The notes: generated by a model not told the origin, from the sequence alone. Positions 48,421 to 62,584 are shown, counted from the stretch's first letter. The stretch: DNA of 64,000 nucleotides from a bacterium (GCA_963674965.2 CAXXFL010000001.1:64001-128000), one strand, 5' to 3'. Made by a program: numbers and translations.

Positions 48421-50352
48421 TTAGTAAACGTGGTAGCCGTCCTCGCCGTCCGGCCCCACCTTGTTGTCCCAGTCTCCTATCCAGCCGTGCCTCTCCCTCT
48501 CCTCGACGCTCGCCGACGAGTAGTCGTGGCCGACCTCGGCCGGCGAAATGAGCGGATAGCGCCGGGAAAGGTTGGTGTCGATCGCCGCGTACTCGAAGCG
48601 GTTGTCGCTTCGGGCCGACTTCTTGAGGACCTCGAAGAGCCTCCCCGCCAGCGGAGCGCCGCTCGCGTCCACCACGTCGCGGCTGGTGACGCGGACGAAG
48701 TCGCCCACCTTCAGGCCCGAGTCCTTGAGCTCGAGGGAGAAGCCCAGCGTCGGCGCCCCGCGCCCGTAGCGGATCAAATACCTCGAGGCCAAAATCAGCG
48801 CCTCGTTCTCGCGATATATCCAGTCGGCCTTGATCTCCTTGTTCTTGGAAAGACGGAAAAAGTCGTTGCTCTCGCTCTCGGCGTCTATATAAACCAAAAG
48901 CCCCGCGTAGGAGTCGGCCTCGTCTCCGGACGCCCCGGCCATGGGATCGTAATAAACCGTGGCCCGCGTGGCCTGGAGCTTAAGGCCCGGCTCCCAGCTC
49001 GTCGAGCCGTCGATGAAGCCCGTCTCGTCGTCAAGCTCGGCGGCGTTCCCCGCCATGACGGGCGGGGCCACGCACTTGGCCCATATTTTCGAGTCCTCCC
49101 CCTGCCAGACGTGAAGCATGGTCTGCTCGCGAAGTCCGTTGATGAGCTTCTTGATCGAGGTGGGCTTGTCCACCCTCCTCCGAAAAAGCGAGCCCGAAAG
49201 CCAGCGCCCCAGCTCGTCGCTGAAGACCACCACCGGCGCCGCCTCGTCCTGGCCGTGGCTCGCGGCCTCGGAGCCCAGCGCGCCCCTCTCCGTCGCGTGA
49301 ACGCCCGAGGAGGTCTTGCCCCGGTAGGAAACAAGCTCGTCTCCTATCCGCACGGTCCCGGTCTCGGGCAGGTCCCGGGCGTTATTCAAGCCGATCTCGA
49401 GCTCGGAGGCCCCGATGGACGAGGACAAGGTAACGCCCCGGTCCACCGCCGCCAGGTCGAGAGGGTCGATGCCGCCGCTCTCGCAGAGAAGAGACATGAA
49501 TATCTCGTCCGCCGGAAGTCCCTCCCCCGAGTCCTCCTCCGCGAAGACCGCGGCCTGGGCGACTTTGGTCCCGGCCAAGTGGGACGCCGCCGCCGAGCCG
49601 TAAGCCCCGCTCGAGCACCCCTCCAGCGTCTGGGCGGTCACGCCGGTGAAGGTCACGTACTCGTCCTCGATCTTGACCGCGCCGGGGGCCTCGAACTCGG
49701 CGCCGTCCGCCACGTGCATGACCGAGCCGCCGCTATAGTCCATGAGCAGGACGTTTTTCGAGGACTGGCGGGGAGGTATCTTTTTGTCCAGGAGCTTGAG
49801 CTGGTCCTTGACGATCAGCCGCGCCCTACCCTCCTCCCACTCGAGGCCGTCGATTACTCCCTTGAAGACCAGCCGATACTCCGAGACCTCGAGGCCGCCG
49901 AAGCCCCGGTAGACGCGGGCCGTCCGGCCCTCGAGGTTCGGGTTGCGGGCGATGAGGTTGCGGAAATAGGAGCCTCCCGTCTCGAGGCGGGAGACGGCCT
50001 TGTCCGGATTGGCCAGGGCGAGGGGCTCGTCGTCCAGGAACTCGATGGTGACGCGGGCCCGGCGGGTGACGCTCTCTCCCGGCTTGATCTCGGTGGGTAC
50101 CTCGCCCACGCTCGCGAGGTAGGGCAGGGCGCCCGGCAGCCTGGGACCGTCGGCCGAGCAAAAGCAATACTCCTTCATGGTCCTCGAGAAATCGGCCGGG
50201 GCCAGGCAGGTGGAATAGGTGTAGTAACAGCCCTCGCCGCCCGAGGCCCCGCACGGCGCCTGGCCGTACTCGTTCGCGCAGTAGTCCAGGTCAAGCGCGA
50301 CCAGCCACGTGACCTCCCGGCAAATCCCGGACCTTTTATCATCGTAGTTCAT
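48421..50352 (-). CDS. Putative tail tip/hub protein
   Basis: Follows the Dit-like gene; N-terminal DYC...YG.APC...C..T..TC; F.GVID..E; C-terminal LKVGDFVRVT. Confidence 0.65.
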   Translation of the reverse strand: MNYDDKRSGICREVTWLVALDLDYCANEYGQAPCGASGGEGCYYTYSTCLAPADFSRTMKEYCFCSADGPRLPGALPYLASVGEVPTEIKPGESVTRRARVTIEFLDDEPLALANPDKAVSRLETGGSYFRNLIARNPNLEGRTARVYRGFGGLEVSEYRLVFKGVIDGLEWEEGRARLIVKDQLKLLDKKIPPRQSSKNVLLMDYSGGSVMHVADGAEFEAPGAVKIEDEYVTFTGVTAQTLEGCSSGAYGSAAASHLAGTKVAQAAVFAEEDSGEGLPADEIFMSLLCESGGIDPLDLAAVDRGVTLSSSIGASELEIGLNNARDLPETGTVRIGDELVSYRGKTSSGVHATERGALGSEAASHGQDEAAPVVVFSDELGRWLSGSLFRRRVDKPTSIKKLINGLREQTMLHVWQGEDSKIWAKCVAPPVMAGNAAELDDETGFIDGSTSWEPGLKLQATRATVYYDPMAGASGDEADSYAGLLVYIDAESESNDFFRLSKNKEIKADWIYRENEALILASRYLIRYGRGAPTLGFSLELKDSGLKVGDFVRVTSRDVVDASGAPLAGRLFEVLKKSARSDNRFEYAAIDTNLSRRYPLISPAEVGHDYSSASVEERERHGWIGDWDNKVGPDGEDGYHVY

Positions 50353-50381: not shown

Positions 50382-51155
50382 TCACTCGCCCGCGCTTATC
50401 ATCTCGATCGCGAGCGAGCGGTAGGGCCCCTGATAGGGAGAAGAAAAGCCCGGCTCGGCCGAGCGGACCAGCGCCACGCGTCTCGGGTCGCGCGCCGGGT
50501 CCCAGGCGAAGAAGAAAGGCCTCAGGCCGTGCAGTCGCCAGAAGCGGGACCACTCCTCCTCGATAAAGCCCGGGTCCAGCCGATCGAAGCTGGCCCGAAT
50601 CCGGCGCCTCGAGTATTTTTGCGCCACGCCGAGAAGACGGCCCGTCCTTCCCGTCTCGGCGGCCATGGCCGTCTCGAGACCGTCGGGATCGAAGCCCGCC
50701 TCGGGAAAGGCCGGTATTTCCATGGCCTGGCCCACGAAGAGAACGCCCAACCGCGGGGCGGCCGAGTATCCGTCGGGTATGACCAGCTTGAAATAGCGGC
50801 GGCTTTGGACGGGAAAGCGGCAAAAGAACGCGGAGTCGTCCTCCGGCGCGGCCGGTTCCATGCAGTCATGGTAGATCGAGTCGTCGTCCGAGTACTTGAG
50901 CGCCAGGCCCGAGACGCCGCTCGAGGCCAGGTCATGTCCGGCTATCGCCAGGCAATCCACCGGGGCCTGGCAAGACTCGCCCGCGTCGATCTTGATCTCG
51001 AGGTCTCCCGAGGACGCCTCCGCTCGCCAGTGGGTGTAGTCCCTCCAGTCCAGGGCGTTCTGAAAGGGAAAACCCGCCGCGTCGGCCGGCCGCGTTACCG
51101 TAACGCCGTCCATGCTCAAAACGTTCTCCCAGGCGATCACCGGATAATCGCTCAT
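50382..51155 (-). CDS. Putative distal tail protein with carbohydrate-binding-like N-terminal domain
   Basis: Directly after the tape measure (ATGA overlap); GFP..NALDWRDYTHW, AIAGHDL, RYFKL, RPFFFAW.P. Confidence 0.6.
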   Translation of the reverse strand: MSDYPVIAWENVLSMDGVTVTRPADAAGFPFQNALDWRDYTHWRAEASSGDLEIKIDAGESCQAPVDCLAIAGHDLASSGVSGLALKYSDDDSIYHDCMEPAAPEDDSAFFCRFPVQSRRYFKLVIPDGYSAAPRLGVLFVGQAMEIPAFPEAGFDPDGLETAMAAETGRTGRLLGVAQKYSRRRIRASFDRLDPGFIEEEWSRFWRLHGLRPFFFAWDPARDPRRVALVRSAEPGFSSPYQGPYRSLAIEMISAGE

Positions 51156-51766
51156 GACGCCACCTCCAGGATCACGTCGTCGCTCAGGTTCTCGTTGATG
51201 GCGTCGATCAGCTCGCGAGCGAAGTCGTAGGTGTCGATCAGGCCCACGTTGCGGCCCACGTCCACCACCACCCGCGTTTGTCTCGTCTCCGGGTCGCTAT
51301 TGGAGGGGGCGGTCTCGGCCGCTGACCCCTGGCCGCCGGTCCGGTATCCCGCTACGCTTCCCCCACCCGACTTGGCGGCCTTGGCGTACTGCTGGGCGGC
51401 CAGGGCGTGCTTGAGCGAGCTGGCCAGGGCCGTCGGGTCCTTGGTCCCCAAAAACCTGGCGAACTCCTTGGTCGCCTCGGCGATCTCGAAGGGGATCATA
51501 ACCTTGGCCTGGTCCTTGACCGACCCGCCCAGCAGCGTGGCCATCGAGCCGGCCAGCTTGCCGTAGCTCGAGAGCTGCTCGGACCAGGACGACTGGCGGA
51601 GGTCCGAGATGAGAGACTCCCACCTCGAGACGGTCCCCGCCTTGTCCGAATAGGAGGTCTCGAGCTTTTCACGCTCGGACCCGAGGTATTGCTCGAGCAG
51701 GGCGGCCCTTTCGTCCATCATTTCCCTAAGCGCCTCCATGTCGGAGGCGAGCAACTGGTCATCCAT
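51152..51766 (-). CDS. Putative very short tape measure protein (~204 aa)
   Basis: Lies after the frameshifted chaperone pair; helical Ala/Leu/Glu-rich; G/S-rich linker, then C-terminal VVVDV...ARELIDAINE; GAGGAG RBS. Confidence 0.6.
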   Translation of the reverse strand: MDDQLLASDMEALREMMDERAALLEQYLGSEREKLETSYSDKAGTVSRWESLISDLRQSSWSEQLSSYGKLAGSMATLLGGSVKDQAKVMIPFEIAEATKEFARFLGTKDPTALASSLKHALAAQQYAKAAKSGGGSVAGYRTGGQGSAAETAPSNSDPETRQTRVVVDVGRNVGLIDTYDFARELIDAINENLSDDVILEVAS

Positions 51767-52019
51767 TTTCAATCTCCTCGATCAGGTGAAGGACCCAAAG
51801 GTCCCAGAACTCAAGTCCGGTCTCGGCCGCGGGATACCCGGCCTTTATCGGCCCGCGCCAAAGGAGGACCCGGATAAGCTCCGGCGACGCCTTCTCGATC
51901 GTCGGCTCGGAGCAGTTCCGGCAGGTCCAGTCCGAGTAGGGACCGAGGCGGTCCTCGCAGTCGGCGCAGCTCGAGGCCCGGCCCGAAAGAAAGGCCCGGG
52001 CATCCCGCGCTATTTTTTT
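51759..52019 (-). CDS. Tail assembly chaperone extension (gpGT-like), reached by -1 frameshift
   Basis: Open -1 frame after A AAA AAA; encodes CADC...CRNC; no ATG downstream of the shift site. Confidence 0.6.
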   Translation of the reverse strand, partial: KKIARDARAFLSGRASSCADCEDRLGPYSDWTCRNCSEPTIEKASPELIRVLLWRGPIKAGYPAAETGLEFWDLWVLHLIEEIENG

Positions 52020-52378
52020 AGGCCGCCCTCCCTCACGTGGGACGGCACGGCCGAAAGGTACTGGCCCAGGGCGATGGGTATGAGCGGACAGCGCTCGGCC
52101 AGGGCGTCCTTCCACCCGCCGCGCTCCTCCCCGGCGCCCGGCGAGGGCGCGCCGTCGATCTCGAGGTCGCCCTCCCCCACGCCGGTCACGCAGGCCAGGC
52201 CCAGCTCGAGGTTGGCGTGAAGGGCCCGGAGCGCGTCCTCATCCTCGCCGCCGCGGGGCATCTTCTTCACCATGGTCTCGATCACCTCGTCCATGGCCGG
52301 CCTTCTGTACCTCACCCGTATCTCGTCGTCTCCGACCCTTAGTCTCAGTTCTCCCTCTTTGCCGATCCTTAACGTCAT
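52010..52378 (-). CDS. Tail assembly chaperone (gpG-like)
   Basis: Start MTLRIG at 52378 (AAGGA RBS); between tail tube and tape measure; ends GGC CTA AAA AAA TAG. Confidence 0.65.
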   Translation of the reverse strand: MTLRIGKEGELRLRVGDDEIRVRYRRPAMDEVIETMVKKMPRGGEDEDALRALHANLELGLACVTGVGEGDLEIDGAPSPGAGEERGGWKDALAERCPLIPIALGQYLSAVPSHVREGGLKK

Positions 52379-52407: not shown

Positions 52408-53682
52408 TTAAAGGTATCCGTCCACGCGGTTGTGGCAGCGTATAATCGCGCCGCCGCAAACGCCGTCGTCCATCACCACCAGGTCGCCCTCCTCGGAGAG
52501 CCGGCCGCCGCCGCTTACGATGGCCGACTTGACCAGCCCGCACCTGGGGAAAATCAGCTCGGCCCCGAAGCGCTCGCCTCCCTCGTCGATTTGGGCGCCC
52601 TCGAGCAAAAGGGCCAGCGCCAGGGTCTCCGTCTCCGGGTTGTCCGCCCGCCATCTGCCGACCGTGTTCCTCAGTCCCTCCGACAGGCTGATGGTGATCT
52701 CTCTCGCGCCGCGAAGCGCCAGGGCCGCCGGTCCCGAGTCGCCGGGAAACCTTTTCAGCTCGAGGTTGTTCTTGCCGGAAACGGAAATGGACTCGATCCC
52801 GGAGGATATGGTCTGGCCTCCCAGCAGGGTGGTCCCGTCGAAATAGGCGTCGGCTATAACTCTTGAGTCGATAAGCTTGAGGGGCGACTCGGCGGCCTCG
52901 GCGGGAAAGGCGGCCCAGTCCGGCGCGGGGACCAGGTAGTCCAGGTGGAACTGGACGTCCGAGGAGGACGAGCCGAGGGGCTGGACAAAGGTAATAACCG
53001 CGGGCTCGCCGTCGGACACGGAGGCGACCTCGAGGGTCGTCCAGGCCTGGCTTCCGGCGTCTTTGGCCCGGACCCGGTAGAGGTTGCCAAGACGCTCCAG
53101 AGCGGTGGCCCCCGCCACCTTGTTCGAGGCCAGCGTGATGGAGGCCGAGTCGGCCGGGGCCTCGATTACCTCGCGCTCGTAGTCGGTCTCGCGCGCGCCG
53201 GTCCCGATGACCTCGGCCGAGGCCGTGACCCATCCCTCCCCCAGCCCGATGGTGAAGGACTCGATAAAGTTACCCGAAAGGCGCTCGGTGAAAATCCCCG
53301 CGCCCCTTCGCTGCACGGCGGTGAAGCTGGGAAGCTCGAGGCCGGGAGCGGGACCGATTACGTGCTCGAAGGCCGTCGCGCCGACGGCCGCCGTCTGGAC
53401 CTCGCCGAGGAAATAGGCGAGGACGAAGGCGATGAAATCGGGCCTGGCCCGGGACTGGGCCAGGGAGCCCAAGGCGCCTCGAGCGGCCGAGAAAAGCCGG
53501 GTGGGAAACTCGGAGCCCGTAATCGAGCCGGCGTCGGTTTCTACCTCGGCCGAGCTTTGTATCCATGACCCCGGATCGAGCGGGAAAGAGGCCCCCGCCC
53601 GATTGGACGGCTGGTTCACCGCCTCTTCCGCGCCCCTGTAAAGGGCGATCCTTCCCAGGGCCTCGAGATTGTTCTTGATCAT
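52408..53682 (-). CDS. Putative major tail tube protein, possibly with an inserted accessory domain
   Basis: Start MIKNN at 53682 (AAGGAGG RBS); LPSFT, IESFTI...TASAEVIG.G, ISVSGKNNL, ELIFPRC; no sheath gene. Confidence 0.65.
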   Translation of the reverse strand: MIKNNLEALGRIALYRGAEEAVNQPSNRAGASFPLDPGSWIQSSAEVETDAGSITGSEFPTRLFSAARGALGSLAQSRARPDFIAFVLAYFLGEVQTAAVGATAFEHVIGPAPGLELPSFTAVQRRGAGIFTERLSGNFIESFTIGLGEGWVTASAEVIGTGARETDYEREVIEAPADSASITLASNKVAGATALERLGNLYRVRAKDAGSQAWTTLEVASVSDGEPAVITFVQPLGSSSSDVQFHLDYLVPAPDWAAFPAEAAESPLKLIDSRVIADAYFDGTTLLGGQTISSGIESISVSGKNNLELKRFPGDSGPAALALRGAREITISLSEGLRNTVGRWRADNPETETLALALLLEGAQIDEGGERFGAELIFPRCGLVKSAIVSGGGRLSEEGDLVVMDDGVCGGAIIRCHNRVDGYL

Positions 53683-53702
53683 TTCGATTCCTCCTTGATC
53701 CT

Positions 53703-54227
53703 TTAAAGGGCGAGTCCGGGACAAAAAGGCACGGCGACCTCGATCCCGGTCAGTGACGAGGCCATGGCGCCGTCGGTCCCCGTTTCGGTTTCATTGATCC
53801 GCGTCTGGATGATCGAGCAGGTCAGGGTCCCTTCCCCTCCCTCGATGGATTCGGCCAGCGCCTGCATGGGAGCGTCGGCGCGGTTCTGGGAACGCAGGAC
53901 CCGCTCGATCCTGGCGGCGATCCTTTTAATTTCGTCCTCGATCTTTTCCCTGTCCCTGCCGCGATGGGCCGCTCGGACCTCGAGCGCGAATATCTTGTTC
54001 ATGCGGGCGGCCGGGCACGCGGGCGTCTCGGTCTTGCCCGAGGCCCGGACCAGGACCGCGGGGAACTGGGAGGCCGCGAGGCTGTCGGGCGGTGAGCCGC
54101 CGCGCCCGAAGGTCCTCACCGCGGGACCGGCCGCCCGGTTCAGTCCGCCTTCCCCGGAGTCGGCCAGGAGCGTTTCGATCACTTTTTCCTCGACCTCGAG
54201 GTAGTCTCCATTCGCCAGGTTCGTCAT
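53703..54227 (-). CDS. Putative tail terminator/completion protein
   Basis: Position before the tail tube; QFPAVLV...F.LEV...I..I.RVL. Confidence 0.5.
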   Translation of the reverse strand: MTNLANGDYLEVEEKVIETLLADSGEGGLNRAAGPAVRTFGRGGSPPDSLAASQFPAVLVRASGKTETPACPAARMNKIFALEVRAAHRGRDREKIEDEIKRIAARIERVLRSQNRADAPMQALAESIEGGEGTLTCSIIQTRINETETGTDGAMASSLTGIEVAVPFCPGLAL

Positions 54228-54242: not shown

Positions 54243-55034
54243 TCATCCCGGCCAGGGCCACTCGACGCCGCCGTCGGAACGGGACAGCTCTCCCCGATAC
54301 GCTGACACGGGACCTCGGTAGCCGGGCAGCCGCAGGACGGGGGTCTTGCCCTCCGAGGGCGTGAGGCGCATGAGCAGGGAAAGGGCGCGCTGATAAAGCT
54401 CCTCGTCGGCCCGGGCGTTGGCCCTTCCCATGAAGGACGCGCATTGCCAGGCGGACAGCTTGCGGCACGCGGTCTCGACCACCGCGGGCGTGGGCGTCTC
54501 GTCGTGGATCGAGGGAAAGGGCACGTCATAGCAAACGCGGAGGAAGGCGTCGATTTTGCGCGAGGCCTCGGCGATGGCCATGCTCACCATTTCCTCGGTG
54601 AACTCCTCGGGCCAGGCGCCGGGCAGCTCGGCCGCGACCCTTGCCGGCGTCGAGTAAAGAGGTCCCTCGACGCTTCCGGCCGCGACCTCGAAGGCCGCCA
54701 GCACGGTCGGATACGGGAAAACCTCGACCCCCGAGACGCGGGCGTAAACGTGGGCCTCGGCCACGCCGGCGGCGAAGCTCGCGAGCTCGATTCCCCCCAC
54801 GTACAAGAAGGGGCCGCCCTCCTGGTTCTGGGTCTCGTGATAGTCGTTGCCTTGCAGGATGGGGGGATCGCCGCCCGCGGTCGCCGCGGCCCTGACCGTT
54901 CCCCCGGCGTCGCGGAACTCGACCTTAAGGTCCGGGTCGTCCCAGTCCGGCAGGGTCCAGTGACCCAGGCCGTCGGGCACGCGGAAGTCGAAGCCGGCCT
55001 TTTCCGATCTCGAAAAAACTGGAAGCGAGTTCAT
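54243..55034 (-). CDS. Putative head-tail adaptor (Mu gp36/SPP1 gp15-like C-domain) with extra N-terminal beta domain
   Basis: YSTP..V...I.EAS.KIDAFL...Y.VPF....P.VV...C..L..W...Y..A...L. Confidence 0.65.
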   Translation of the reverse strand: MNSLPVFSRSEKAGFDFRVPDGLGHWTLPDWDDPDLKVEFRDAGGTVRAAATAGGDPPILQGNDYHETQNQEGGPFLYVGGIELASFAAGVAEAHVYARVSGVEVFPYPTVLAAFEVAAGSVEGPLYSTPARVAAELPGAWPEEFTEEMVSMAIAEASRKIDAFLRVCYDVPFPSIHDETPTPAVVETACRKLSAWQCASFMGRANARADEELYQRALSLLMRLTPSEGKTPVLRLPGYRGPVSAYRGELSRSDGGVEWPWPG

Positions 55035-56422
55035 TTTCTCCTCCATATTTCAGGTTGTCTTCTTATCGCCGCGCCGGGAACGCGAGGCTCGGTGACCTGC
55101 TCGAAGCCGGCGTCGATGGACATGGCCCTGGTCTTTCCCGAGGCGCCGCGGCCGGACCAGGGCCGTCCCAGGCCGAGGCAGGGGCTGAAGGTCCGGGGCG
55201 CGAGCCCGGCGTCGAGGAGGGGGTCGGTCTCGAGGGACGCCTGGTCCGTTCCCGTCCTGGCCCTCCACTCTTCCAGGCCCAGCGACTCTCCTCCCACCAC
55301 CGCCATAGCTCCGGACGAGCCGGGATGGAAACAGTTGCCGTCCGAGCGAAGGACCCGGACCTCGGCCGCGGCGTCGGCCCTAATGCACTCGAACTGGGAG
55401 CTTCCCCTTTCGAGGACGTTATTCATCATTCCCGCCAGGATGAGGGCCTTGTCACCCACGTGGCGGACGCCGAAGGAGTTGGCCTTGGCCGAGTTGTTGG
55501 CCAGGACGAAATAGACCTCGGCGTCGTTATAAATCCATTGGAAGCCGCCCATGGAGCGGCATCCGCTCATCTCGACCATGGTCTTGTAATCGTTTGGCGC
55601 CCCGGCGTAAGTCCCGGCGGCCTGGAAGGTCATGTCCTTAAAGTCGCAGCGCCTGATCGCGAGAAGGTCGGCGTTGACCAGGCAGACCCCGATATCGAGC
55701 GGCTTCTCGGGTGACCCCTCGAAGAGGCACTCCTCGATCCGCCAGTCCCGGACGACGGCGCTCCCGGGCCGGGCCGGCAGGATTCCCACCAGGGCGCCGG
55801 TGAACTTGATCCTCCTTACCCTCACGCTTCCCACGTCGCCGCTCTCGAGGCAGGCGCCGGCGTCCTCGCCGTCGAAGGTCACGGCGTTTCCCTCCTCGGC
55901 GTCTATCACCAGGGGATGGGCGGCGGTCGGGCTCAGGGTCGAGAGCGAAAGGGTCGCTCCCGAAACTCCCTGCCCGTAAACGCCGGCCCAGCCGCGAGCG
56001 TAATGGGTCTCGGCGAACTCGGACGGCCCGACCCAGGACAGGAGCGCGTCCAGGGCGGTTTGGGGCGAGCCGTAAGTCCGGCCCGGCCCGTAGTCCCACA
56101 CGGTCGAATGGGAGCGGTCCAGGCCCTCGGGGCCGGGGACGAGGGTCAGGGACGAGCCGAGGTTGGCCACGCGAAACGCGGCGCAGCGGGCGGCCGACTC
56201 GGCGGCGATGAACTCGCCGTCCTTGAATATAAGCGCCCTTTGTTTGAAGGAGGGCGGGTCTTTTTTCCTGAGGGCGGGCGGCAGGGCGCCGACCTTGTGG
56301 GCGCGCCACAGCCTTCCGCTTTTCTCGTAGTCCGTGGGCTCGACTCCATCGGGCATGGCGGCCGAGACCCATCCCTTGGGCAGGACGCCGTAGTCCTTGT
56401 CGACGATCAGCAAAGTGGGCAT
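55031..56422 (-). CDS. Right-handed beta-helix (pectate-lyase-like) protein
   Basis: IEECLF, IRRCDF, ANNS, MNNVL, SDGNCF repeats; C-terminal DPLL...SPCL..G...DAGFEQ. Confidence 0.6.
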   Translation of the reverse strand: MPTLLIVDKDYGVLPKGWVSAAMPDGVEPTDYEKSGRLWRAHKVGALPPALRKKDPPSFKQRALIFKDGEFIAAESAARCAAFRVANLGSSLTLVPGPEGLDRSHSTVWDYGPGRTYGSPQTALDALLSWVGPSEFAETHYARGWAGVYGQGVSGATLSLSTLSPTAAHPLVIDAEEGNAVTFDGEDAGACLESGDVGSVRVRRIKFTGALVGILPARPGSAVVRDWRIEECLFEGSPEKPLDIGVCLVNADLLAIRRCDFKDMTFQAAGTYAGAPNDYKTMVEMSGCRSMGGFQWIYNDAEVYFVLANNSAKANSFGVRHVGDKALILAGMMNNVLERGSSQFECIRADAAAEVRVLRSDGNCFHPGSSGAMAVVGGESLGLEEWRARTGTDQASLETDPLLDAGLAPRTFSPCLGLGRPWSGRGASGKTRAMSIDAGFEQVTEPRVPGAAIRRQPEIWRRK

Positions 56423-56507: not shown

Positions 56508-57506
56508 TCAGGACGCGGCGCAGCGCCTGAGCTGCTCGGGTTCTCCCACGATGGCGCCGTACCTTCCCCACCCGGCGGTGGTCTCGGCGTAGGCGAGCAC
56601 GTCGCGCTCGGACAGCACGGTCAGGTCCATCCTGTTGCCGCTTTTTATCTTCCTTCCCGGCAGGGCCACGAAGTATTTGCCCGTCTCGGGCGTGGACAGG
56701 TCCTGGCTTTTAAGGCGCGTGGTGACGGCCAGCTTGACGTTGAAGTTGACCTCCCCCGCGTCGCCCGTGACCTGGCCGGAGACGGTGAGACGCAGAGCGT
56801 TCCTCATCCGGGACATGAGCTGGACCGGGCAGAGCACCACGAAGGACGAGTTGGCGTTGACCTCCATGCCCAGTCCCTCCATGTCATCGAGTATGGCGGC
56901 GCAGGCGGCGTTGATGGTCTCGGCGTCGCGGACGGCCTTGTCCTCGCCGGCCTCTCCCGCCCAGGCCACGTCCGAGTCGGGCCTCGCGGCGCTGATGAGG
57001 TCGTAATGGGCCTGGGCCTTGTGGGCGTACCATTTCGAGCGGAACTCTTTGGAGGCGTCCTCGATTTTCCAGTGCTCCTCGTCGTCGAACCACAGCCGAG
57101 ACCAGCCCAGGGCCCCGCCGTAAAGGTCGAAGTCCACGGTCACCTTCTCGCCGCTCACCTTGAAGACGTGGGCCTTCTCCCCCGGCTTGACGGCCCGAAA
57201 GCTGAGGCCGGAGGAAACGTCGACCAGGTCGAAGCCGTTCTTGCGCGTGCCCGTGAAGTCGATCACGTCGAACACCTCCATCCATCCCGCGTCGGGGTCC
57301 TCGACCTGGTGGTAGCGCGAGATGGCCTCGAGGGCGTCCTCGGGGAAGTCCCCCGGCGAGGTGAACTCCGAGACCCGGGCCAGGGTCTCGGCCGCCGCCG
57401 CCCGCGGACGGTCCATGAAGTACTGCACCGCCTCGATGAAGCGCTCTTGTCCGTCCGCGTCGGAAAGGTCAACCTTGTTCCAGTCGGATATCATCATTCC
57501 TTTCAT
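56508..57506 (-). CDS. Major capsid protein (HK97 fold, Mu gpT-like)
   Basis: 332 aa after the cement gene; F..VKPGE.A...YGGALGWSR.W.DD, VVLCP..L, YF...P, GWGRYGA; GGAGGAG RBS. Confidence 0.75.
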   Translation of the reverse strand: MKGMMISDWNKVDLSDADGQERFIEAVQYFMDRPRAAAAETLARVSEFTSPGDFPEDALEAISRYHQVEDPDAGWMEVFDVIDFTGTRKNGFDLVDVSSGLSFRAVKPGEKAHVFKVSGEKVTVDFDLYGGALGWSRLWFDDEEHWKIEDASKEFRSKWYAHKAQAHYDLISAARPDSDVAWAGEAGEDKAVRDAETINAACAAILDDMEGLGMEVNANSSFVVLCPVQLMSRMRNALRLTVSGQVTGDAGEVNFNVKLAVTTRLKSQDLSTPETGKYFVALPGRKIKSGNRMDLTVLSERDVLAYAETTAGWGRYGAIVGEPEQLRRCAAS

Positions 57507-57538
57507 TTTCTCTCCTCCCTCGATCATGCCCGAGGCGA

Positions 57539-57901
57539 TCAGTCCAGGACCATAAGGTCGATCAGCGCCGTCTCGTCCGAGGCGGCCGCCGCCTCGAGCG
57601 CCCTTCCGCAGGCCACGTTGTCCGTGGACTGGGGAGTCACAACGCCCGCCGACTCGTCGAAGTAAACCCGGTCGCCGGGCGATAAGGTCTCGCCCGAGGC
57701 CTTGGGCGCGAGTATCTTCTCGGCCTCATAGACCAGGACGAAGTCCGAGTTCTCGGGCGCGTCCTCGACCACCACGCCCACCGTGTCGTTCACCACGATC
57801 ATGTCGCCGGCCGACCGGCCCTCGCCCGCGCCCGCGGTCGCCCGCAGGGTCTTGGCCCGGCTTATGCTCGTCCTTAATTTCAATCCCGTCTCAGTCACCA
57901 T
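57539..57901 (-). CDS. DUF2190-like capsid cement/decoration protein
   Basis: AGD.IV....GV...K..GETL..GDRVYFD....VT......CG.ALEAAA. Confidence 0.75.
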   Translation of the reverse strand: MVTETGLKLRTSISRAKTLRATAGAGEGRSAGDMIVVNDTVGVVVEDAPENSDFVLVYEAEKILAPKASGETLSPGDRVYFDESAGVVTPQSTDNVACGRALEAAAASDETALIDLMVLD

Positions 57902-57928
57902 TTCCTTCTCCTTTCATTTCACGCTCGG

Positions 57929-59044
57929 TTAGAATCCTCGGGGACGGGGTATTAGGGGATTGTCCCGTCCCGCTCCCCACCGACGCGGCCTCTCGGGAGG
58001 GGCCGCCGACCGACCGACCGGCCAGGCCGACTTGAGCCTGTCGATCTTCCTCATCTCCGACTCGATCCTCTCTTTAAGCTCTAGCTCGAAGCCCGCTCCC
58101 TTCAGCGGCGGCCTGGTCACCAGGTCCTCGATGATGATCTCCCTTTCGATCCGGCCCAGGCTCGTGCCCTCGAGCATCCTGGCCGCGTCCACTCTGGCCT
58201 TTTCCGAAAGACGAGCCATGCGGGCCGCCTTTTTCAGCCTGGACAGCTCGCGGCCGGCGCGGCGGAGCTTTCCGTTCTTGGCCTCGAGTCCTTGCTCGAG
58301 GCCCTCCACCTTGGCGGCCTCCTTTCGGATCACGTCCGCCACGACCGGGTCGGACATGAGGCGCTCGCGGCCGAAAAGCTCCGAGGGAAGGGTCTCGGCC
58401 GGCGCGTCCGTTTCGCCGTCGCCGCCTTGCCTTTCGCCCGGCTCCTCGAACTCCTCGACCGCCGCCAGCACCGAGGCGTAGGCGAAGCCGGGACGGTCAT
58501 GGCCCGACCGGCCCAGGGCCACGCCCGTCACCTTCCTGACCGCGTCCACTATCCAGGCGCCGGAACTCCCGTCCTCACCGTGGCACTCGATCTCGGCCTC
58601 GATCGAGCACACGTCCAGGCGGCCCGACCGTATGTCCCGTTTGACCTCCGGGTCAGTCACCGCGGCCAGGCCCACGGCGCTGAGAAGTCCGTTCACCCTT
58701 CTCTCGCCGGCGGACACCACCTCGCCCACCTTGCGCCTGACCGCTCCCGCCGGGGCGTGGCAAAGGTAGAGGGGAACGCCGCTCCCCAGCCGGGCGGCCA
58801 GCTCGCGGACGCGCTCGCGGCTCCAGAACTTCCTTCTCGGAGAACCGCCCTTTCCGTCGTCGCTCATCCTTCCCCGCGAGTAGCCCTCGTGCCCCGCCAC
58901 CAGCTCGACGAACAGGGGACTCGAGTCCATTTCCTCGATCCGCCGGCGGAATCCCTCTCCCACCCGGGCCCTGGCCTCGAGGGCGTCGGTCTCCGTCGGG
59001 CCCGCGGCCACGAGGGTCAGGCCGGTTACCATTGTCTTTTTCAT
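57929..59044 (-). CDS. Prohead protease-scaffold fusion
   Basis: YLCH, VGEVV, I.SG.LD.CSIE, TGVAL...PGF..A, then coiled coil. Confidence 0.65.
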   Translation of the reverse strand: MKKTMVTGLTLVAAGPTETDALEARARVGEGFRRRIEEMDSSPLFVELVAGHEGYSRGRMSDDGKGGSPRRKFWSRERVRELAARLGSGVPLYLCHAPAGAVRRKVGEVVSAGERRVNGLLSAVGLAAVTDPEVKRDIRSGRLDVCSIEAEIECHGEDGSSGAWIVDAVRKVTGVALGRSGHDRPGFAYASVLAAVEEFEEPGERQGGDGETDAPAETLPSELFGRERLMSDPVVADVIRKEAAKVEGLEQGLEAKNGKLRRAGRELSRLKKAARMARLSEKARVDAARMLEGTSLGRIEREIIIEDLVTRPPLKGAGFELELKERIESEMRKIDRLKSAWPVGRSAAPPERPRRWGAGRDNPLIPRPRGF

Positions 59045-60360
59045 ATCTCTCCTCCTTCCTCTTCCTTACTGGGCTGGAAGACTTCCATCCCGCTTTCGCC
59101 CCTCGAGGCGGCCTCCTGTTTTTCCTTGTCGGGATCGACGTCGGGCAAAAGCCCCAGCAGGGTATCGAGCCCGATGGCGCCGGCCTGGAAGAGGGGCAGG
59201 TATAGCTCGGTGAGCCGCTCGATCTGGGCCCTGGTGACGAACTTCATGGAGGGTCTGACCTTGCCCTTCTTGAGGGGCGCGGCGCTCGCGAGGGCGTTTT
59301 CATTCCTCAGCTCGATGGCCTTGTCGAACAGCTCGGAGAACCCTCCCAGCCAGGAGCGCTGCTCGGAGATGGACACCAGGGCCACGGGCTCCATGGTGTT
59401 GTCGGCGGTGGCGCGGTTGCTCATGAACTCGGGAAAGCCCAGAAACTGCACGGGCACTCCCGCGCCTCCGGCGAGAATTTTGACCTTTGTCTCGATCTCG
59501 CGCTGGATGGAGTCGTATCCGGAGTCGCTCATGCCCACGAGGGAGAAGTCGGCCGGCCCGACGAAGACCTTTCCGATCTTCCAGTCCACGCCGGGAGCGA
59601 GAAGGCGCTCGTAAAGGTCCATGGCCTCCCGGACGTCCCGGGTCTTGAAGTAGGGGGTGGGCGAGGCGAAAAAGCGGTTGATCTTGCGCCAGTCGCGCAG
59701 GGCGTGGTCCACGTCCTCGGCCTCCTGGAGGAGCCCCGAAAGGGTCGGCGCCCCCTCGCGGCCGTGCACGCGGGCGTTGAACTTGATGAAGACGGCGCGC
59801 TCGGGAGGCACGCTCACCTCGCCTCCGTTTTCGTCCTCATAGGTGATGGCCGTTATTTCCGCGTAGTCGTCGCGGGCGTACTCGACCTCGTAGCGCGAGT
59901 CGTTCCAGGAGATGAAACGCGTCTTGATTGAGTCGGCCGCGGGTTCGTAATCGAGGGTGAGGAGCACCTGTCCCTCGAGTTCCTTCTCGACGGCGAGCTG
60001 CTGCCCGAACTGCCCGTCGAGGCGGTTCTCCCGGATAAGGCGGCGGAGGAACTCGAGCTCGGGTCCGGGTCCCTCGCCCGGAAGCGGCGCCGCCGACAAC
60101 CCGTTGGCCATGGCGAAGGCGGCCCTCGTGTCCACCAGACGCTGCACGAGCTGGTTGCCCGAGCGGGCGTAGCCCTTGTACTTTTGCACCAGTTCCGAGA
60201 CCAGTCTCTCCCGGTCCCGGTAGGGGTTGGCCGCCGGGATTGACTGGCCCGCCGCTCTTCCCGCCTTGAAGGACAAAACCTCTGACACGTACTCCTCGGT
60301 ACGGGCCAGCTTGATCTCGAGTTCCTTTGCCCTCGTCTTCCATTTCGATCTTCCAAACAT
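59041..60360 (-). CDS. Portal protein
   Basis: 439 aa, first gene of the cluster; V.R.VD..AAF, FIKFN...EG.P.L, GVPVQFLG....SNRATA; GGAGG RBS. Confidence 0.75.
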   Translation of the reverse strand: MFGRSKWKTRAKELEIKLARTEEYVSEVLSFKAGRAAGQSIPAANPYRDRERLVSELVQKYKGYARSGNQLVQRLVDTRAAFAMANGLSAAPLPGEGPGPELEFLRRLIRENRLDGQFGQQLAVEKELEGQVLLTLDYEPAADSIKTRFISWNDSRYEVEYARDDYAEITAITYEDENGGEVSVPPERAVFIKFNARVHGREGAPTLSGLLQEAEDVDHALRDWRKINRFFASPTPYFKTRDVREAMDLYERLLAPGVDWKIGKVFVGPADFSLVGMSDSGYDSIQREIETKVKILAGGAGVPVQFLGFPEFMSNRATADNTMEPVALVSISEQRSWLGGFSELFDKAIELRNENALASAAPLKKGKVRPSMKFVTRAQIERLTELYLPLFQAGAIGLDTLLGLLPDVDPDKEKQEAASRGESGMEVFQPSKEEEGGEI

Positions 60361-60835
60361 TTGATCCTCCCCTGAACTTGTTTTTTGCCTCTTACTAATG
60401 GCGAAACGGGCGCGTTTTTGTGGACCCCGGGTTGACGAAAAAGGGAAATGGGGGCGCGAGAAGGATATGCCGACGTGTAATTACTCGGCGTTACGGGAGG
60501 TTATGAAACGCGAAAAATTTTTCGTCCATCCTCCCTTGACGAGTTCAATTCAACCGTGACTCGACGAAAATAGGACTCGTTTATGGCCCCGCCTCGCGAC
60601 CTTAAGAGATCGTTACGCCGGGAGAATGGGCGCCCGGACGCCCGGCGGCGGCCGCCGCGAAATACGGGCTTGCTTGAGTCGGTTTCTTGAGATAATTTTT
60701 AGTCGTGTCCTTTTACCGCCCGGTCACGCCGGGCGCGGGCCCCTAGTTCACATCGCGGGTTCAAGGGGCCGCCTATTTCTTCCCGGCTCGGAAAGGCCTT
60801 CTCGAGGCGGGAGTTAAAAAATCGAGGAGGAGTGA

Positions 60836-62584
60836 ATGGGAAAGTATTCTCCTAACGTGATCGCCAACTGTCTGGCTTCCTGCGCCATGCACAACCCCGG
60901 CGGGGAGGTGGTCGTTTACGGCGACCGTCGCGTCACCTGGCTCGAGCTTTGGACGCGGTCGTCGAAGCTGGCCAACGCCCTGATCGGGCTGGGCGTGAAA
61001 AAAGGCGACAAGGTCTGCTTCATGTTCCACAACGTTCCCGAGTTCCTGGAGGTCAACTACGCGGTCCAGGCGGCGGGCGCGGTCCCGGTGCCCATGAACT
61101 ACCGCTTCATCGCCAGGGAGGTCGAGTATCAGGCCGGCCATTGCGACGCGTCGGTTTTCATTTACGACTCGCTTTTCAACGCGGCCGTGGAGGGCGCGGC
61201 CCCGCGTCTGTCCAAGATCGAGAGCTTCATCCGCCTGGGGGAGGGGGAGCTTTCCGGGGCCCTTGATTACGAGGAGGTGGTCAAGTCGGGCGTCGCCCGT
61301 GACCCGGAGGTCGAGAACGACTGGGACGACGTGGCCGCCATGATTTACACGGGGGGCACGACGGGTTTTCCCAAGGGGGTGATGCTGACTTACGCGGCCC
61401 ACGCCGAGATGCACTCGGCCCTTCTGGCCCGGGTGGTGACGCGAGCGGTTGACGTCCAACTGACGGACGAGCAGATGGCGGGGGTGGGAGACACCTTCCC
61501 TCTTCCGGGGGCCAAGCTTGTCCTTCCCCTTACCCGGACGGGGGCGTTCAAGCGTTTCATGAAGCGGGAGGGCGTTTACAAGGCCATATACAAGGGATTA
61601 TACCGCGCCTATACTCATCCCGAGGTGGCGCGTTTCGCCTACGACAAGACGCTCAAATACATGATCCCTTCCATGCCTCTTTTTCACGACGCCTCCTACC
61701 AGATACTTTTCCTGGCCTCCATGTTCGGCAACATCTGCTTCGTGCTGGTGGACGACGTGAAGTTCAACCCCGAGAGGGTCCTGGCCCTGGCGGAGAAGGA
61801 GGAAATCCTTTTCATGGCCAACGTGCCCACGGGCTGGAAAAAGATCGTGGGCTTCGAGGGTCGGCACAAGTTCAACCTCGAGTCCGTCAAGATCGCCGCC
61901 ACCGGGGCGGGCGCGGCCTCGGCCGGCCTCAAGAAAAAGATATTCGAGACCTTTCCCAACATCATCGTGGTCGACATGTTCGGCCAGACGGAGATGACGC
62001 CCATTACCACCTTCCGCATCGACGCCGACCCCTCGACCTTAAAGGACAGGTCGGTGGGCAAGTCCATCATCGAGGCCAAGGTGGTGGACGAGAGTGGAAG
62101 GGAGCTTCCACAAGGCGAGATCGGCGAGATACTTTACAAGTCCAAAACGGTGATGAAGGGCTACTACAAGGACGAGGAAAAGACCGGCGAGGTCATAAAC
62201 GACGGTTGGTTCCGGGGCGGCGACCTGGGCTACATCGACGATGAGGGCGAGATCAGGCTGGTGGACCGGAAGAAGGAGTGCATCAACACCGGCGGCGAGA
62301 AGGTTTTTCCCCTCGAGGTGGAGGAGGTCATACACGAGCACGAGGCGGTGGACGACGCGTGCGTCATCGGCGTGCCCGACGAGGATTGGGGCTCGACGGT
62401 GCGGGCGGTGGTTCAGCTCAAGCCCGGCAAGGACGCCTCGGAAAAGGAGATCATCGATTTCCTTCGCGACAAGCTGGCGGGCTACAAGATTCCCAAGTCC
62501 GTGGTATTCGTCAAGGAGCTTCCCCTCTCTCCCGTGGGCAAGGTCCTGCGGGCCAAGATTCGGGAACAATACGGCCGGCCGTGA
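60836..62584 (+). CDS. Long-chain fatty acid--CoA ligase (AMP-binding)
   Basis: YTGGTTGFPKG, FGQTE, GWF.GGDLG, DRKKE.INTGGEKV, LPLSPVGK. Confidence 0.92.
   Translation: MGKYSPNVIANCLASCAMHNPGGEVVVYGDRRVTWLELWTRSSKLANALIGLGVKKGDKVCFMFHNVPEFLEVNYAVQAAGAVPVPMNYRFIAREVEYQAGHCDASVFIYDSLFNAAVEGAAPRLSKIESFIRLGEGELSGALDYEEVVKSGVARDPEVENDWDDVAAMIYTGGTTGFPKGVMLTYAAHAEMHSALLARVVTRAVDVQLTDEQMAGVGDTFPLPGAKLVLPLTRTGAFKRFMKREGVYKAIYKGLYRAYTHPEVARFAYDKTLKYMIPSMPLFHDASYQILFLASMFGNICFVLVDDVKFNPERVLALAEKEEILFMANVPTGWKKIVGFEGRHKFNLESVKIAATGAGAASAGLKKKIFETFPNIIVVDMFGQTEMTPITTFRIDADPSTLKDRSVGKSIIEAKVVDESGRELPQGEIGEILYKSKTVMKGYYKDEEKTGEVINDGWFRGGDLGYIDDEGEIRLVDRKKECINTGGEKVFPLEVEEVIHEHEAVDDACVIGVPDEDWGSTVRAVVQLKPGKDASEKEIIDFLRDKLAGYKIPKSVVFVKELPLSPVGKVLRAKIREQYGRP

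What the first reader, a model, noticed from the sequence alone, without database searches (positions are those of the whole stretch)
59041..60836. Intact portal but no terminase at the head of the cluster
Seen: the portal is the first gene, and the ~475 bp upstream holds no terminase-sized ORF or recognisable Walker-motif remnant. Established: tailed phages and RcGTA encode TerS/TerL immediately before the portal. Inference: packaging is supplied in trans from a separate locus (a possible control point) or borrowed from infecting phages. Alternatively the particles are DNA-free (decoy, tailocin-like or protein-delivery), or they interfere with phage assembly.
Basis: partly seen in the sequence, partly recalled or inferred. 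Interest (0 to 1): 0.75.

Follow-up and report, generated by a model that had tools for sequence, protein, structure and literature searches.

The report
Phage-like particle cluster with relocated terminase
The portal gene heads a phage-derived head-and-tail gene cluster that every sampled member of an uncultured bacterial class has inherited vertically, and its missing terminase gene is intact elsewhere in the genome, which fits a gene-transfer-agent-like element whose parts have been split between two loci.

Summary
The 439-aa ORF at 59041-60360 (-) has a portal fold, it is the first gene of a 14-gene head-tail cluster (47053-60360), and the 475 bp upstream hold no terminase ORF or remnant.

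The terminase was relocated, not lost. An intact TerL ortholog lies on another contig (G000:C2:212159-213559), behind a ParB-like gene and a methyltransferase-like gene. Its ATPase and nuclease motifs are conserved.

Portal, capsid and TerL are each single-copy in 13 of 13 genomes of the class. Their identities fall with taxonomic distance, and the portal and TerL trees recover the families. dN/dS between two congeners is 0.10-0.36 for the 16 genes tested. No integrase or replication gene flanks the cluster in this genome.

TerL sits directly upstream of the portal in 6 of 12 relatives and in 11 of 13 sampled related ~40-kb phage contigs, so adjacency is probably ancestral. TerL and portal are separated in 6 of 13 genomes, which needs at least three rearrangements on the portal tree.

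Best reading: a domesticated, GTA-like element with packaging supplied in trans. DNA packaging and transfer are inferred, not shown. A terL outside the structural cluster has a published precedent in Brachyspira BhGTA.

The parts
60361..60835 (-). 475-bp region upstream of the portal; no terminase ORF or remnant; presumed promoter and 5' leader of the head-tail module
   Evidence: Longest stop-to-stop frame is 85 codons. TerL tblastn gives best E 0.18. No sigma-70 consensus site was found. GC is 0.56, against 0.659 for the cluster. It carries a degenerate copy of a motif (GCAACAnTTTTCCA-like) that lies 35-60 nt before the portal start in relatives.
59041..60360 (-). Portal protein (439 aa)
   Evidence: AF2 pLDDT 92.1. 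Foldseek PDB: all listed rows are portals, lambda portal E 6e-12. phrog_27684 5.8e-21. Single copy in 13 of 13 genomes of the class.
57929..59044 (-). 371-aa protein, putative scaffold or prohead protease (inferred from position and a coiled-coil C-terminal half)
   Evidence: phrog_24820 (unknown function) 1.1e-4. A profile search of the PDB hits only coiled coils at positions ~190-310. Homologs follow the portal in 71 of 80 IMG/VR loci.
57539..57901 (-). Head decoration / cement protein (120 aa)
   Evidence: Pfam Phage_cement_2 59.5 bits (cut-off 24). phrog_122 head decoration 7.6e-18.
56508..57527 (-). Major capsid protein (339 aa)
   Evidence: phrog_24071 4e-20. Pfam Phage_capsid_4 19.8 bits, below the cut-off of 27. 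Single copy in 13 of 13 genomes at 53-77% identity. dN/dS 0.105.
55031..56422 (-). 463-aa right-handed beta-helix protein; variable accessory (spike or depolymerase-like) gene
   Evidence: ESM Atlas feature hits to Beta_helix/NosD clusters, score 0.95. The G002 ortholog hits Pfam Beta_helix at 29.2 bits (cut-off 25.9). Full-length orthologs are found only in the 4 same-family relatives.
54243..55046 (-). Mu gp36-like head-completion / adaptor protein (267 aa)
   Evidence: Pfam Phage_Mu_Gp36 28.1 bits (cut-off 24.7). phrog_195 head-tail adaptor 1e-4.
53703..54227 (-). 174-aa protein of unknown family (head-tail joining by position; inference)
   Evidence: No family hit better than E 0.0095. Syntenic ortholog in 10 of 10 fetched relatives.
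52408..53724 (-). 438-aa candidate tail tube protein
   Evidence: ESM Atlas score 0.98 (233 of 256 features) to ~430-aa viral clusters in which 21-25% of members carry PF18906 Phage_tube_2; this is a lead only. phrog_290 minor tail protein 5.9e-7. Ortholog in 10 of 10 relatives.
51759..52115 (-). 118-aa protein of unknown family (position of a tail assembly chaperone; inference)
   Evidence: No family hit. Orthologs in 10 of 10 relatives.
51152..51772 (-). 206-aa protein with weak likeness to tape-measure C-termini
   Evidence: phrog_31452 2.9e-4 and phrog_9483 4.9e-4, both tail length tape measure.
50382..51155 (-). 257-aa tail protein with a CBM32-like N-terminal part
   Evidence: phrog_11633 (unknown function) 4e-21. 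An ortholog profile hits PDB 4a42 (carbohydrate-binding module) at E 3e-4.
48421..50352 (-). Tail fibre / distal tail protein (643 aa)
   Evidence: phrog_11439 tail fiber protein 3.4e-49.
47624..48355 (-). Lytic transglycosylase (SLT domain, 243 aa)
   Evidence: Pfam SLT 30.7 bits (cut-off 21.3).
47053..47547 (-). 164-aa protein of unknown family, last gene of the cluster
   Evidence: No family hit. Orthologs in relatives lie between the fibre and SLT genes, so the order is swapped here.

Best explanation
The portal heads the head-tail module of a phage-derived element that has been domesticated and inherited vertically across a whole uncultured bacterial class.

Ancestral layout: a methyltransferase-like gene, a ParB-N-domain gene and terL lay directly upstream of the portal, as in related phages.

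Layout in this genome: a rearrangement moved the two modules at least 323 kb apart.
- The head-tail module is at G000:C1:111056-124360.
- The packaging module is at G000:C2:212159-216327.

Shown here:
- the portal fold;
- the intact TerL ortholog elsewhere in the genome;
- class-wide single-copy conservation, synteny and purifying selection;
- repeated separation of the two modules with both kept.

Inferred:
- the distant TerL docks on procapsids built from this cluster and fills them with DNA;
- because the element has no replication or integration genes and cannot fit both loci into one head, the particles carry host DNA, like a gene transfer agent.
For: Terminase present in trans.
- TerL ortholog at C2: E 4.8e-178, 482-codon open frame, no stops; phrog_38 1.5e-95; Terminase_6C 42.7 bits.
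- The Walker A (APRGHGKS), Walker B (LDDxxD) and nuclease acidic positions are invariant in the 10 aligned orthologs. The motif names are recalled, not tool output.

Class-wide conservation.
- Portal: 12 of 12 relatives of the same class and 0 of 48 other genomes.
- TerL: 13 of 13. MCP: 13 of 13. Each is single-copy.
- All cluster genes are single-copy in G000.
- Gene order is conserved in the 10 relatives fetched.

Vertical descent.
- Identity to G000 at same-family / same-order / same-class level: portal 69-72 / 61-64 / 57-58%; MCP 74-77 / 62-71 / 53-55%; TerL 59-62 / 49-55 / 48-49% (the 55% is the larger of two pieces of the N-interrupted G007 gene).
- Housekeeping CarB: 77-78 / 70-73 / 66%, except the f2 genome G005, whose best match is 57%.
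- Portal and TerL trees both recover the taxonomic families.
- Portal and TerL pairwise distances correlate at r = 0.909 over 55 pairs.
- The 13 portals form one clade (SH-aLRT 97) among 56 outside representatives.

Selection and long residence.
- dN/dS between G002 and G004 is 0.105-0.356 for 13 of the 14 cluster genes and for TerL, ParB-like and SPL-like; g118 could not be paired.
- Cluster GC tracks local host GC from 0.445 to 0.659 across 10 genomes, and is 0.01-0.05 above the flanks in all 10.

Not a prophage or satellite in this genome.
- The flanks are trpA, an alpha/beta hydrolase, an AMP-binding enzyme and an epimerase.
- No integrase, replication or repressor gene adjoins the cluster; the only mobile-element gene among those scanned in the window is a DDE transposase about 22 kb away.

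Adjacency is probably ancestral.
- TerL lies directly upstream in 6 of 12 relatives, from three families including the most distant one.
- It also does so in 11 of 13 sampled IMG/VR contigs that share the head module.

Both modules kept after repeated separation.
- They are separated in G000, G003, G006, G007, G008 and G009. The portal tree needs 4 changes of this state, 3 of them forced by well-supported branches.

No single head could carry the whole element here.
- The two loci are at least 323 kb apart, computed from their distances to the contig ends.
- Related phage contigs are about 40 kb.
Against: - There is no experimental or expression evidence for particles, packaging or transfer.
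- No small terminase and no holin/endolysin pair were identified. The only lysis-type gene is the SLT protein.
- Head capacity is unknown. In relatives with the contiguous form the whole element is only about 16 kb and could in principle fit in one head.
- The motif conserved upstream of the portal is degenerate in G000. No sigma-70-type promoter was found upstream. No sequence is shared convincingly between the upstream regions of the two G000 loci. Co-regulation is therefore unsupported here.
- G000 has the longest terminal branch of its family in both trees (portal 0.34 against 0.094-0.25; TerL 0.42 against 0.15-0.34). This could mean relaxed constraint after the split.
- Most relatives are fragmented metagenome bins, so 'different contigs' rests on binning. 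One case (G010) is undetermined. The G007 TerL is interrupted by runs of N, so its state is unknown.
- Purifying selection shows that the genes are used, not what for.
Confidence: 0.65

Rival explanations
1. It is a domesticated particle system with a host function other than gene transfer. Examples are killing or interference against competitors or phages, or delivery of some other cargo. TerL would still be used, or would have been repurposed.
For: Conservation and dN/dS below 1 show use, not the kind of use. The cluster carries a variable beta-helix protein, a CBM-like tail protein and a lytic transglycosylase, which would also suit a surface-attacking particle.
Against: Capsid, portal, decoration protein and a catalytically intact TerL are all kept in every genome sampled. 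Tailocin-type killing devices dispense with heads (recalled general knowledge). No toxin or effector gene was seen in the cluster.
Confidence: 0.17
2. It is a defective prophage remnant that is slowly decaying. The terminase-less cluster in this genome would be non-functional, and the distant TerL an unrelated leftover.
For: There are no lysogeny, replication or clear lysis genes. The upstream motif is degenerate in G000. G000 has the longest branches in its family. G000 also has a local swap of the last two genes.
Against: All 14 cluster ORFs and the 3 packaging-module ORFs are open in G000. The orthologous set is single-copy in 13 of 13 genomes that are about as far apart as 66% CarB identity. 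dN/dS is 0.10-0.36. MCP is almost as conserved as CarB within the family (74-77% against 77-78%).
Confidence: 0.1
3. It is an active mobile element: a prophage with scattered genes, or a capsid-forming satellite. It would package itself using a helper, for example the C6 prophage terminase.
For: A complete-looking prophage with its own TerL and portal exists on contig C6. Related head modules occur in ~40-kb viral contigs.
Against: No integrase or replication gene adjoins the cluster. There is no second copy in the genome. Portals matching the two conserved peptides were found in only 12 other species genomes of the 185,579-species collection, all with 57-71% identity. The search with 61 genomes found the portal in no genome outside the class (0 of 48). 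The trees follow host taxonomy. No match exists in 50,697 GenBank phage records.
Confidence: 0.05

Closest known systems
BhGTA (VSH-1) of Brachyspira hyodysenteriae, family Brachygtaviriformidae
   Same: It is a head-tail gene cluster without a terminase. A single conserved terL lies outside the delineated cluster and is proposed to act on it, and the 'genome' is likely spread over several loci. Source: passages of PMC9662315 read.
   Different: No homology was tested or seen. The present element has relatives that still show the contiguous terL-portal form, so the split can be dated within the class. BhGTA particles and DNA transfer are experimentally known; here nothing is.
RcGTA and RcGTA-like GTAs (Rhodogtaviriformidae) of Alphaproteobacteria
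   Same: It is a cluster of about 15 kb with head and tail genes. It is vertically inherited and co-diversifies with the host, and it has further loci elsewhere in the genome (passages of PMC9662315). Cluster GC is above the local host GC, as I recall was reported for RcGTA-like clusters (not read here).
   Different: RcGTA keeps terL (g2) inside the main cluster (PMC9662315). The proteins here fall in other families: Portal_Mu-like, Phage_capsid_4-like and phrog_38 TerL. This implies an independent origin. A ParB-like plus methyltransferase-like pair precedes terL, and no TerS was recognised.
Uncultivated ~40-kb tailed phages in IMG/VR that share the head module
   Same: The portal, 371-aa protein, decoration protein and MCP are homologous and in the same order. 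All 80 loci kept have a portal hit (27-36% identity to the search query). 71 have the 371-aa protein, 59 the decoration protein and 63 the MCP (MCP 35-43% in the ten loci printed). TerL is directly upstream of the portal in 11 of 13 sampled.
   Different: These are whole phage genomes of about 40 kb. None of the tail genes of the present cluster has a hit in them at E 1e-4. Most carry a different TerL type (phrog_2 / phrog_3717 rather than phrog_38).
Bacteriophage Mu head module (gpH portal, gp36)
   Same: The gp36-like protein passes the Pfam cut-off, and the portal's only Pfam hit is Portal_Mu.
   Different: The portal score is below the family cut-off (16.7 against 23.9 bits). No Mu F-like protein is in the cluster. 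There are no transposition genes.

Membership tests
Phage portal protein (fold) | Portal fold (recalled as clip, stem, wing and crown) recognisable by structure comparison | tested here: met
   AF2 model with pLDDT 92.1. Foldseek PDB: 184 matches at E <= 0.001, all listed rows are portals, best is lambda 8xot_B at E 6e-12 with TM 0.61/0.57.
Pfam Portal_Mu (PF06074) | Score at or above the curated gathering cut-off (23.9 bits) | tested here: not met
   16.7 bits, E 0.005. This is a distant relative at best.
Large terminase (TerL) | N-terminal ATPase with Walker A and B, plus a C-terminal RNaseH-like nuclease with conserved acidic residues | tested here: met
   The C2 protein scores 42.7 bits on Terminase_6C (cut-off 22.6) and 1.5e-95 on phrog_38. 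GHGKS, LDDxxD, D303 and HDDLxD are invariant in 10 orthologs. The motif roles are recalled.
Gene transfer agent (attributes listed in PMC9662315) | Encodes caudovirus-like structural proteins | tested here: met
   Portal, decoration protein, MCP, adaptor, tail fibre and SLT.
Gene transfer agent (attributes listed in PMC9662315) | Genome fully endogenised in the host genome, often across multiple loci | tested here: met
   Host genes flank the cluster and no integrase or replication gene adjoins it. The packaging module is on another contig.
Gene transfer agent (attributes listed in PMC9662315) | Mostly vertical inheritance and co-diversification with hosts | tested here: met
   13 of 13 genomes of the class carry it. 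Identities follow taxonomic rank. Trees recover the families. The 13 portals form one clade among outside homologs. No formal test against a species tree was run.
Gene transfer agent (attributes listed in PMC9662315) | Its own genes cannot all be packaged into one particle | tested here: inconclusive
   In G000 the two loci are at least 323 kb apart, far above the ~40-kb genomes of related phages. Head capacity was not measured, and in relatives with the contiguous form the element is only about 16 kb.
Gene transfer agent (attributes listed in PMC9662315) | Particles carry mostly random host DNA and deliver it to other cells | not testable with these tools
   This needs particle purification and sequencing, and transfer assays.
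RcGTA-like GTAs (Rhodogtaviriformidae) | Homology to the RcGTA head-tail genes, with terL inside the cluster | tested here: not met
   terL is not in the cluster. At E <= 0.01 the portal hits only Portal_Mu and the MCP only Phage_capsid_4. That RcGTA proteins belong to other Pfam families is recalled. No direct comparison with RcGTA sequences was made.
Tailocin / phage-tail-like bacteriocin | Tail-only particle without capsid, portal or terminase (recalled) | tested here: not met
   Capsid, portal, decoration protein and TerL are conserved.
Phage satellite (PICI, capsid-forming PICI) | Mobile island with integrase, replication and regulation genes that hijacks a helper phage (recalled) | tested here: not met
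   No such genes flank the cluster in G000. It is single-copy with a vertical pattern. Flanks in relatives were examined only upstream of the portal.

The most novel reading that the evidence does not exclude
This is an independently domesticated gene transfer agent that is universal in an uncultured bacterial class. The lineage is probably the one that named metagenome bins label 'Deltaproteobacteria bacterium RBG_13_61_14'.

Its packaging module (methyltransferase-like, ParB-like, TerL) is tied to a divergent HTH-radical-SAM (spore-photoproduct-lyase-like) gene. That module would be a separable control unit. This would explain why evolution could pull it away from the head-tail module at least three times without loss.

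The split and unsplit natural variants would then be a ready-made comparison for how GTA packaging is regulated and targeted.
Probability: 0.35. Interest if true: 0.75.

Novelty: new member of a known kind. Interest (0 to 1): 0.6.

Why it matters
Only a handful of independent GTA lineages are known. PMC9662315 formally classifies three (passages read). All were found through cultured organisms.

A class-wide, vertically inherited particle cluster in an uncultured lineage would add an independent case found purely by comparative genomics.

About half of the sampled genomes have the terminase module next to the portal, and in six of thirteen it is separated. The group is therefore a natural series for asking two questions: how a domesticated phage is wired into host regulation, and whether trans-acting packaging changes what gets packaged.

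The terminase is not missing; it has moved.

Tried and rejected
- Pfam TerL_ATPase (PF03354) and Terminase_3 (PF04466) found nothing in the genome. Terminase_6N found only the C6 prophage TerL and missed the C2 gene. The C2 gene was found only with a relative's TerL as query and then with Terminase_6C.
- The first portal model, from 10 close orthologs, was unusable (pLDDT 48.4).
- A profile search of PDB sequences gave only a weak SPP1 portal hit (E 0.004). It gave nothing useful for the 438-, 463- and 371-aa proteins.
- tblastn of the portal against GenBank phages gave no match. An IMG/VR scan with the close-ortholog alignment gave none. The 123-sequence alignment was too diverse for a pattern scan, and a 19-sequence alignment worked.
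- A Pfam scan of the 123-sequence alignment exceeded the size limit and was not repeated.
- Cluster look-up of ten outside portal homologs gave no informative names: one cluster was named only 'hypothetical protein' and nine carried no name.
- A search for a shared regulatory sequence between the two G000 loci found only a few 9-10-mers, at about chance level. The portal-upstream motif has no copy better than chance in the C2 locus. A weight-matrix scan of ParB-upstream regions was not significant in the 6 genomes scored before the script stopped at an N.
- The conserved TTGACA-type site between the SPL-like and methyltransferase-like genes is the SPL-like gene's own promoter-like site.
- The sigma-70 scan upstream of the portal found 0 sites.
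- No RNA holder was listed among public runs, so expression could not be examined.
- Earlier notes of this scan on this genome concern unrelated metabolic operons, and no look-alike of the portal was noted elsewhere.
- Complex prediction was not used. A TerL-portal contact is transient and multimeric, so a result either way would not have moved the odds.

Full report
WHAT IS AT THE COORDINATES

The minus-strand ORF 59041-60360 encodes 439 residues. It starts with ATG behind a GGGGAGGA ribosome-binding site.

Sequence families alone hardly identify it:
- Pfam Portal_Mu scores 16.7 bits, below the 23.9 cut-off.
- The best PHROG (phrog_27684, E 5.8e-21) has no annotated function.

I therefore tested the fold.
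- A model from ten close orthologs failed (pLDDT 48.4).
- An exhaustive HMMER search found 421 representative clusters at E <= 0.001; the best outside hit is 44% identical.
- A 123-sequence alignment gave a confident model: pLDDT 92.1, pTM 0.85.
- Foldseek against the PDB returns only phage portals among the listed rows. The best is the lambda prohead portal at E 6e-12, and 184 matches have E <= 0.001.

The portal call is sound.

THE CLUSTER AND THE EMPTY UPSTREAM REGION

A GC3-based gene call and family scans give 14 co-oriented genes from 60360 down to 47053:

| Position | Gene | Main evidence |
|---|---|---|
| 1 | portal | see above |
| 2 | 371-aa protein with a coiled-coil C-terminal half | |
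| 3 | decoration (cement) protein | PF09956, 59.5 bits |
| 4 | major capsid protein | phrog_24071, 4e-20 |
| 5 | 463-aa beta-helix protein | |
| 6 | Mu gp36-like adaptor | 28.1 bits, over cut-off |
| 7 | 174-aa protein | no family |
| 8 | 438-aa candidate tail tube | Atlas lead 0.98; phrog_290 |
| 9 | 118-aa protein | no family |
| 10 | 206-aa protein | weak tape-measure likeness |
| 11 | 257-aa protein with a CBM32-like part | |
| 12 | 643-aa tail fibre | phrog_11439, 3.4e-49 |
| 13 | SLT lytic transglycosylase | Pfam SLT |
| 14 | 164-aa protein | no family |

Both flanks are ordinary host genes: trpA and a hydrolase on one side, an AMP-binding enzyme and an epimerase on the other. No integrase, replication or repressor gene adjoins the cluster.

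In the 475 bp between the portal and the divergent AMP-binding gene:
- the longest stop-to-stop frame is 85 codons;
- six TerL orthologs give only noise by tblastn (best E 0.18).

Logan contigs of two runs of one sample cross the junction without a difference. They may be the assembly's own source.

WHERE THE TERMINASE IS

Family searches of the whole genome first pointed elsewhere.
- Terminase_6N hit only contig C6. That gene sits in a separate prophage with its own portal (phrog_2739), Mu F fusion protein, primase and helicase.
- TerL_ATPase and Terminase_3 found nothing.

The answer came from relatives.
- The portal is present once in each of the 12 other genomes of the same class, and in none of 48 genomes outside it.
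- In the ten loci I fetched, the whole cluster is syntenic.
- In five of those ten loci a ~470-aa gene with a Terminase_6C domain lies directly upstream of the portal on the same strand.
- With one of these as query, the window's own genome gives one strong match on another contig, G000:C2:212159-213535: E 4.8e-178, 59% identity, 482-codon open frame, no stops.
- Terminase_6C then finds exactly two genes in the genome, this one and the C6 prophage gene.

The C2 protein is a phrog_38 large terminase (1.5e-95). In an alignment of ten orthologs, the P-loop (APRGHGKS), the LDDxxD Walker B stretch and the acidic residues of the nuclease half are invariant. The functional naming of these motifs is from memory.

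Upstream of terL on the same strand lie two genes:
- a ParB-N-domain protein (45.9 bits; phrog_723);
- a 215-aa protein with weak, sub-threshold methyltransferase likeness.

A spore-photoproduct-lyase-like radical-SAM protein with an N-terminal HTH is transcribed divergently.

THE ELEMENT IS CLASS-WIDE AND VERTICALLY INHERITED

TerL and MCP, like the portal, are single-copy in 13 of 13 genomes.

Identity to G000 falls with taxonomic distance:

| Protein | Same family | Same order | Same class |
|---|---|---|---|
| Portal | 69-72% | 61-64% | 57-58% |
| MCP | 74-77% | 62-71% | 53-55% |
| TerL | 59-62% | 49-55% | 48-49% |
| CarB (housekeeping) | 77-78% | 70-73% | 66% |

The 55% in the TerL row is the larger of two pieces of the N-interrupted G007 gene. 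The CarB row leaves out the f2 genome G005, whose best match is 57%. The capsid protein is thus nearly as conserved as a core enzyme.

Further support:
- Maximum-likelihood trees of portal and TerL both recover the taxonomic families.
- Their pairwise distances correlate at r = 0.909 over 55 pairs.
- The 13 portals form one clade (SH-aLRT 97) among 56 outside representatives.
- Between two congeneric genomes, dN/dS is 0.105-0.356 for every gene that could be paired: 13 cluster genes, TerL, ParB-like and SPL-like. g118 was not paired.
- Cluster GC follows the local host GC from 0.445 to 0.659 in ten genomes and is slightly above the flanks in all ten.
- Elsewhere, a pattern scan of 185,579 species genomes found only these 12 relatives.
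- GenBank phages have no match.
- IMG/VR holds at least 119 contigs with a portal 27-36% identical, many on contigs of about 40 kb. They share only the head module.

ADJACENT IS ANCESTRAL; THE SPLIT IS RECURRENT

TerL is directly upstream of the portal in G001, G002 and G004 (same family as G000), in G005, and in G011 and G012 (the most distant family). It is also directly upstream in 11 of 13 sampled IMG/VR relatives.

The two modules are apart in six genomes:
- G000: different contigs. Given the distances to the contig ends, the loci are at least 323 kb apart.
- G003: 9.2 kb apart and inverted.
- G007: 11.6 kb apart and inverted.
- G006, G008 and G009: different contigs, with 3.2-14 kb of portal-side sequence that lacks TerL.

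G010 cannot be judged because both genes lie at contig ends. The G007 terL is interrupted by runs of N.

On the portal tree this state needs four changes, three of them forced by well-supported branches.

The methyltransferase-like, ParB-like, terL and divergent SPL-like genes stay together in 11 of the 13 genomes, whichever way the portal cluster went. Even in contiguous forms a spacer of roughly 230-520 bp, GC-poor relative to the cluster, separates terL from the portal in four of the five measured (94 bp in G005). A GCAACAnTTTTCCA-like motif lies 35-60 nt before the portal start in most genomes. This suggests that the head-tail module always had its own transcription start, which would make separation harmless. 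That is an inference.

In G007 a 21-nt exact copy of the motif also precedes the packaging operon. In G000 the motif is degenerate, and I found no shared element between its two loci.

INTERPRETATION

The element has these properties:
- It keeps all the parts of a tailed particle plus a working-looking packaging motor.
- It lacks any replication, integration or lysogeny function.
- It is inherited with the host.
- It is under purifying selection.
- It tolerates being scattered in the genome.

These are the genomic attributes listed for gene transfer agents in PMC9662315 (passages read). That paper also describes a terL outside the structural cluster for Brachyspira BhGTA, so the split itself has a precedent.

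The defining experimental attributes, random host DNA in particles and delivery to recipients, cannot be tested here. I therefore file it as a candidate GTA-like element of independent origin, not as a member of any named GTA family.

Against the strongest form of the claim:
- No TerS or holin/endolysin pair was recognised.
- There are no expression data; no RNA holder was listed.
- Head capacity is unknown.
- G000 has the longest branches within its family.

- Trans supply from a separate locus is supported.
- Borrowing from infecting phages is unnecessary.
- DNA-free or tailocin-like particles fit poorly with the conserved TerL, capsid and portal.
- Interference with phage assembly is not excluded, and nothing here points to it.

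Noticed in passing
L026:12420-13667 (+) = G000:C2:215419-216666; orthologs in L015, L019, L021, L023, L053-L057, L059: A spore-photoproduct-lyase-like radical-SAM protein with an N-terminal HTH is transcribed divergently from the methyltransferase-like/ParB-like/terL operon in 11 of 13 genomes. It stays with that operon even where the portal cluster has moved away. It has a near-consensus TTGACA-16-CATAAT promoter-like site, and dN/dS is 0.13. It could be a regulator or DNA-repair partner of the element, or simply a conserved neighbour.
   Followed up: partly
window 60385-60440 (-) and the equivalent stretch upstream of the portal in L015, L016, L018, L019, L021-L024: A GCAACAnTTTTCCA-like motif lies 35-60 nt upstream of the portal start in most genomes of the class, and is degenerate in G000. 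In G007 an exact 21-nt copy also lies upstream of the packaging operon (L054). It is a candidate shared promoter or operator.
   Followed up: partly
L002:5626-10913 = G000:C6:960625-965912: In the separate prophage on contig C6, an AbiEi/AbiEii toxin-antitoxin pair is inserted on the opposite strand between the large terminase and the portal. The next gene is a 1523-aa Mu F-domain fusion protein (phrog_6577).
   Followed up: no
L026:10561-10952 = G000:C2:213560-213951: The spacer between the ParB-like gene and terL in G000 holds two direct copies of an ~85-bp GC-rich element with an internal palindrome. Similar pieces occur elsewhere on C2 (near 208.6-208.9 kb and 361-362 kb), on C1 and on C5. 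This looks like a REP/MITE-type repeat.
   Followed up: no
window 47053-48355 compared with L015, L021, L023: The last two genes are in swapped order in G000 (fibre, SLT, 164-aa gene). Three same-family relatives have fibre, 164-aa gene, SLT. This is a second local rearrangement of the element in this genome.
   Followed up: no
window 55031-56422 and the MCP-adaptor interval in L017-L020, L022, L024: The beta-helix gene between the capsid and adaptor genes is a variable cassette. Full-length orthologs occur only in the four same-family relatives. Other families have 0.2-2.2 kb of unrelated sequence there (almost none in G009).
   Followed up: partly
window 16000-18000 and 22000-24939: Two low-GC islands (0.46 and 0.51, against about 0.62 for the window as a whole) interrupt a cluster of NifX-like (Nitro_FeMo-Co) and ParA/NUBPL-type Fe-S ATPase genes. 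The second island adjoins a DDE transposase at 23767-24939.
   Followed up: no
L059 (G010:C729): In G010 the packaging module carries a second ParB-like stretch and extra SPL-like radical-SAM sequence inserted between the ParB-like gene and terL.
   Followed up: no
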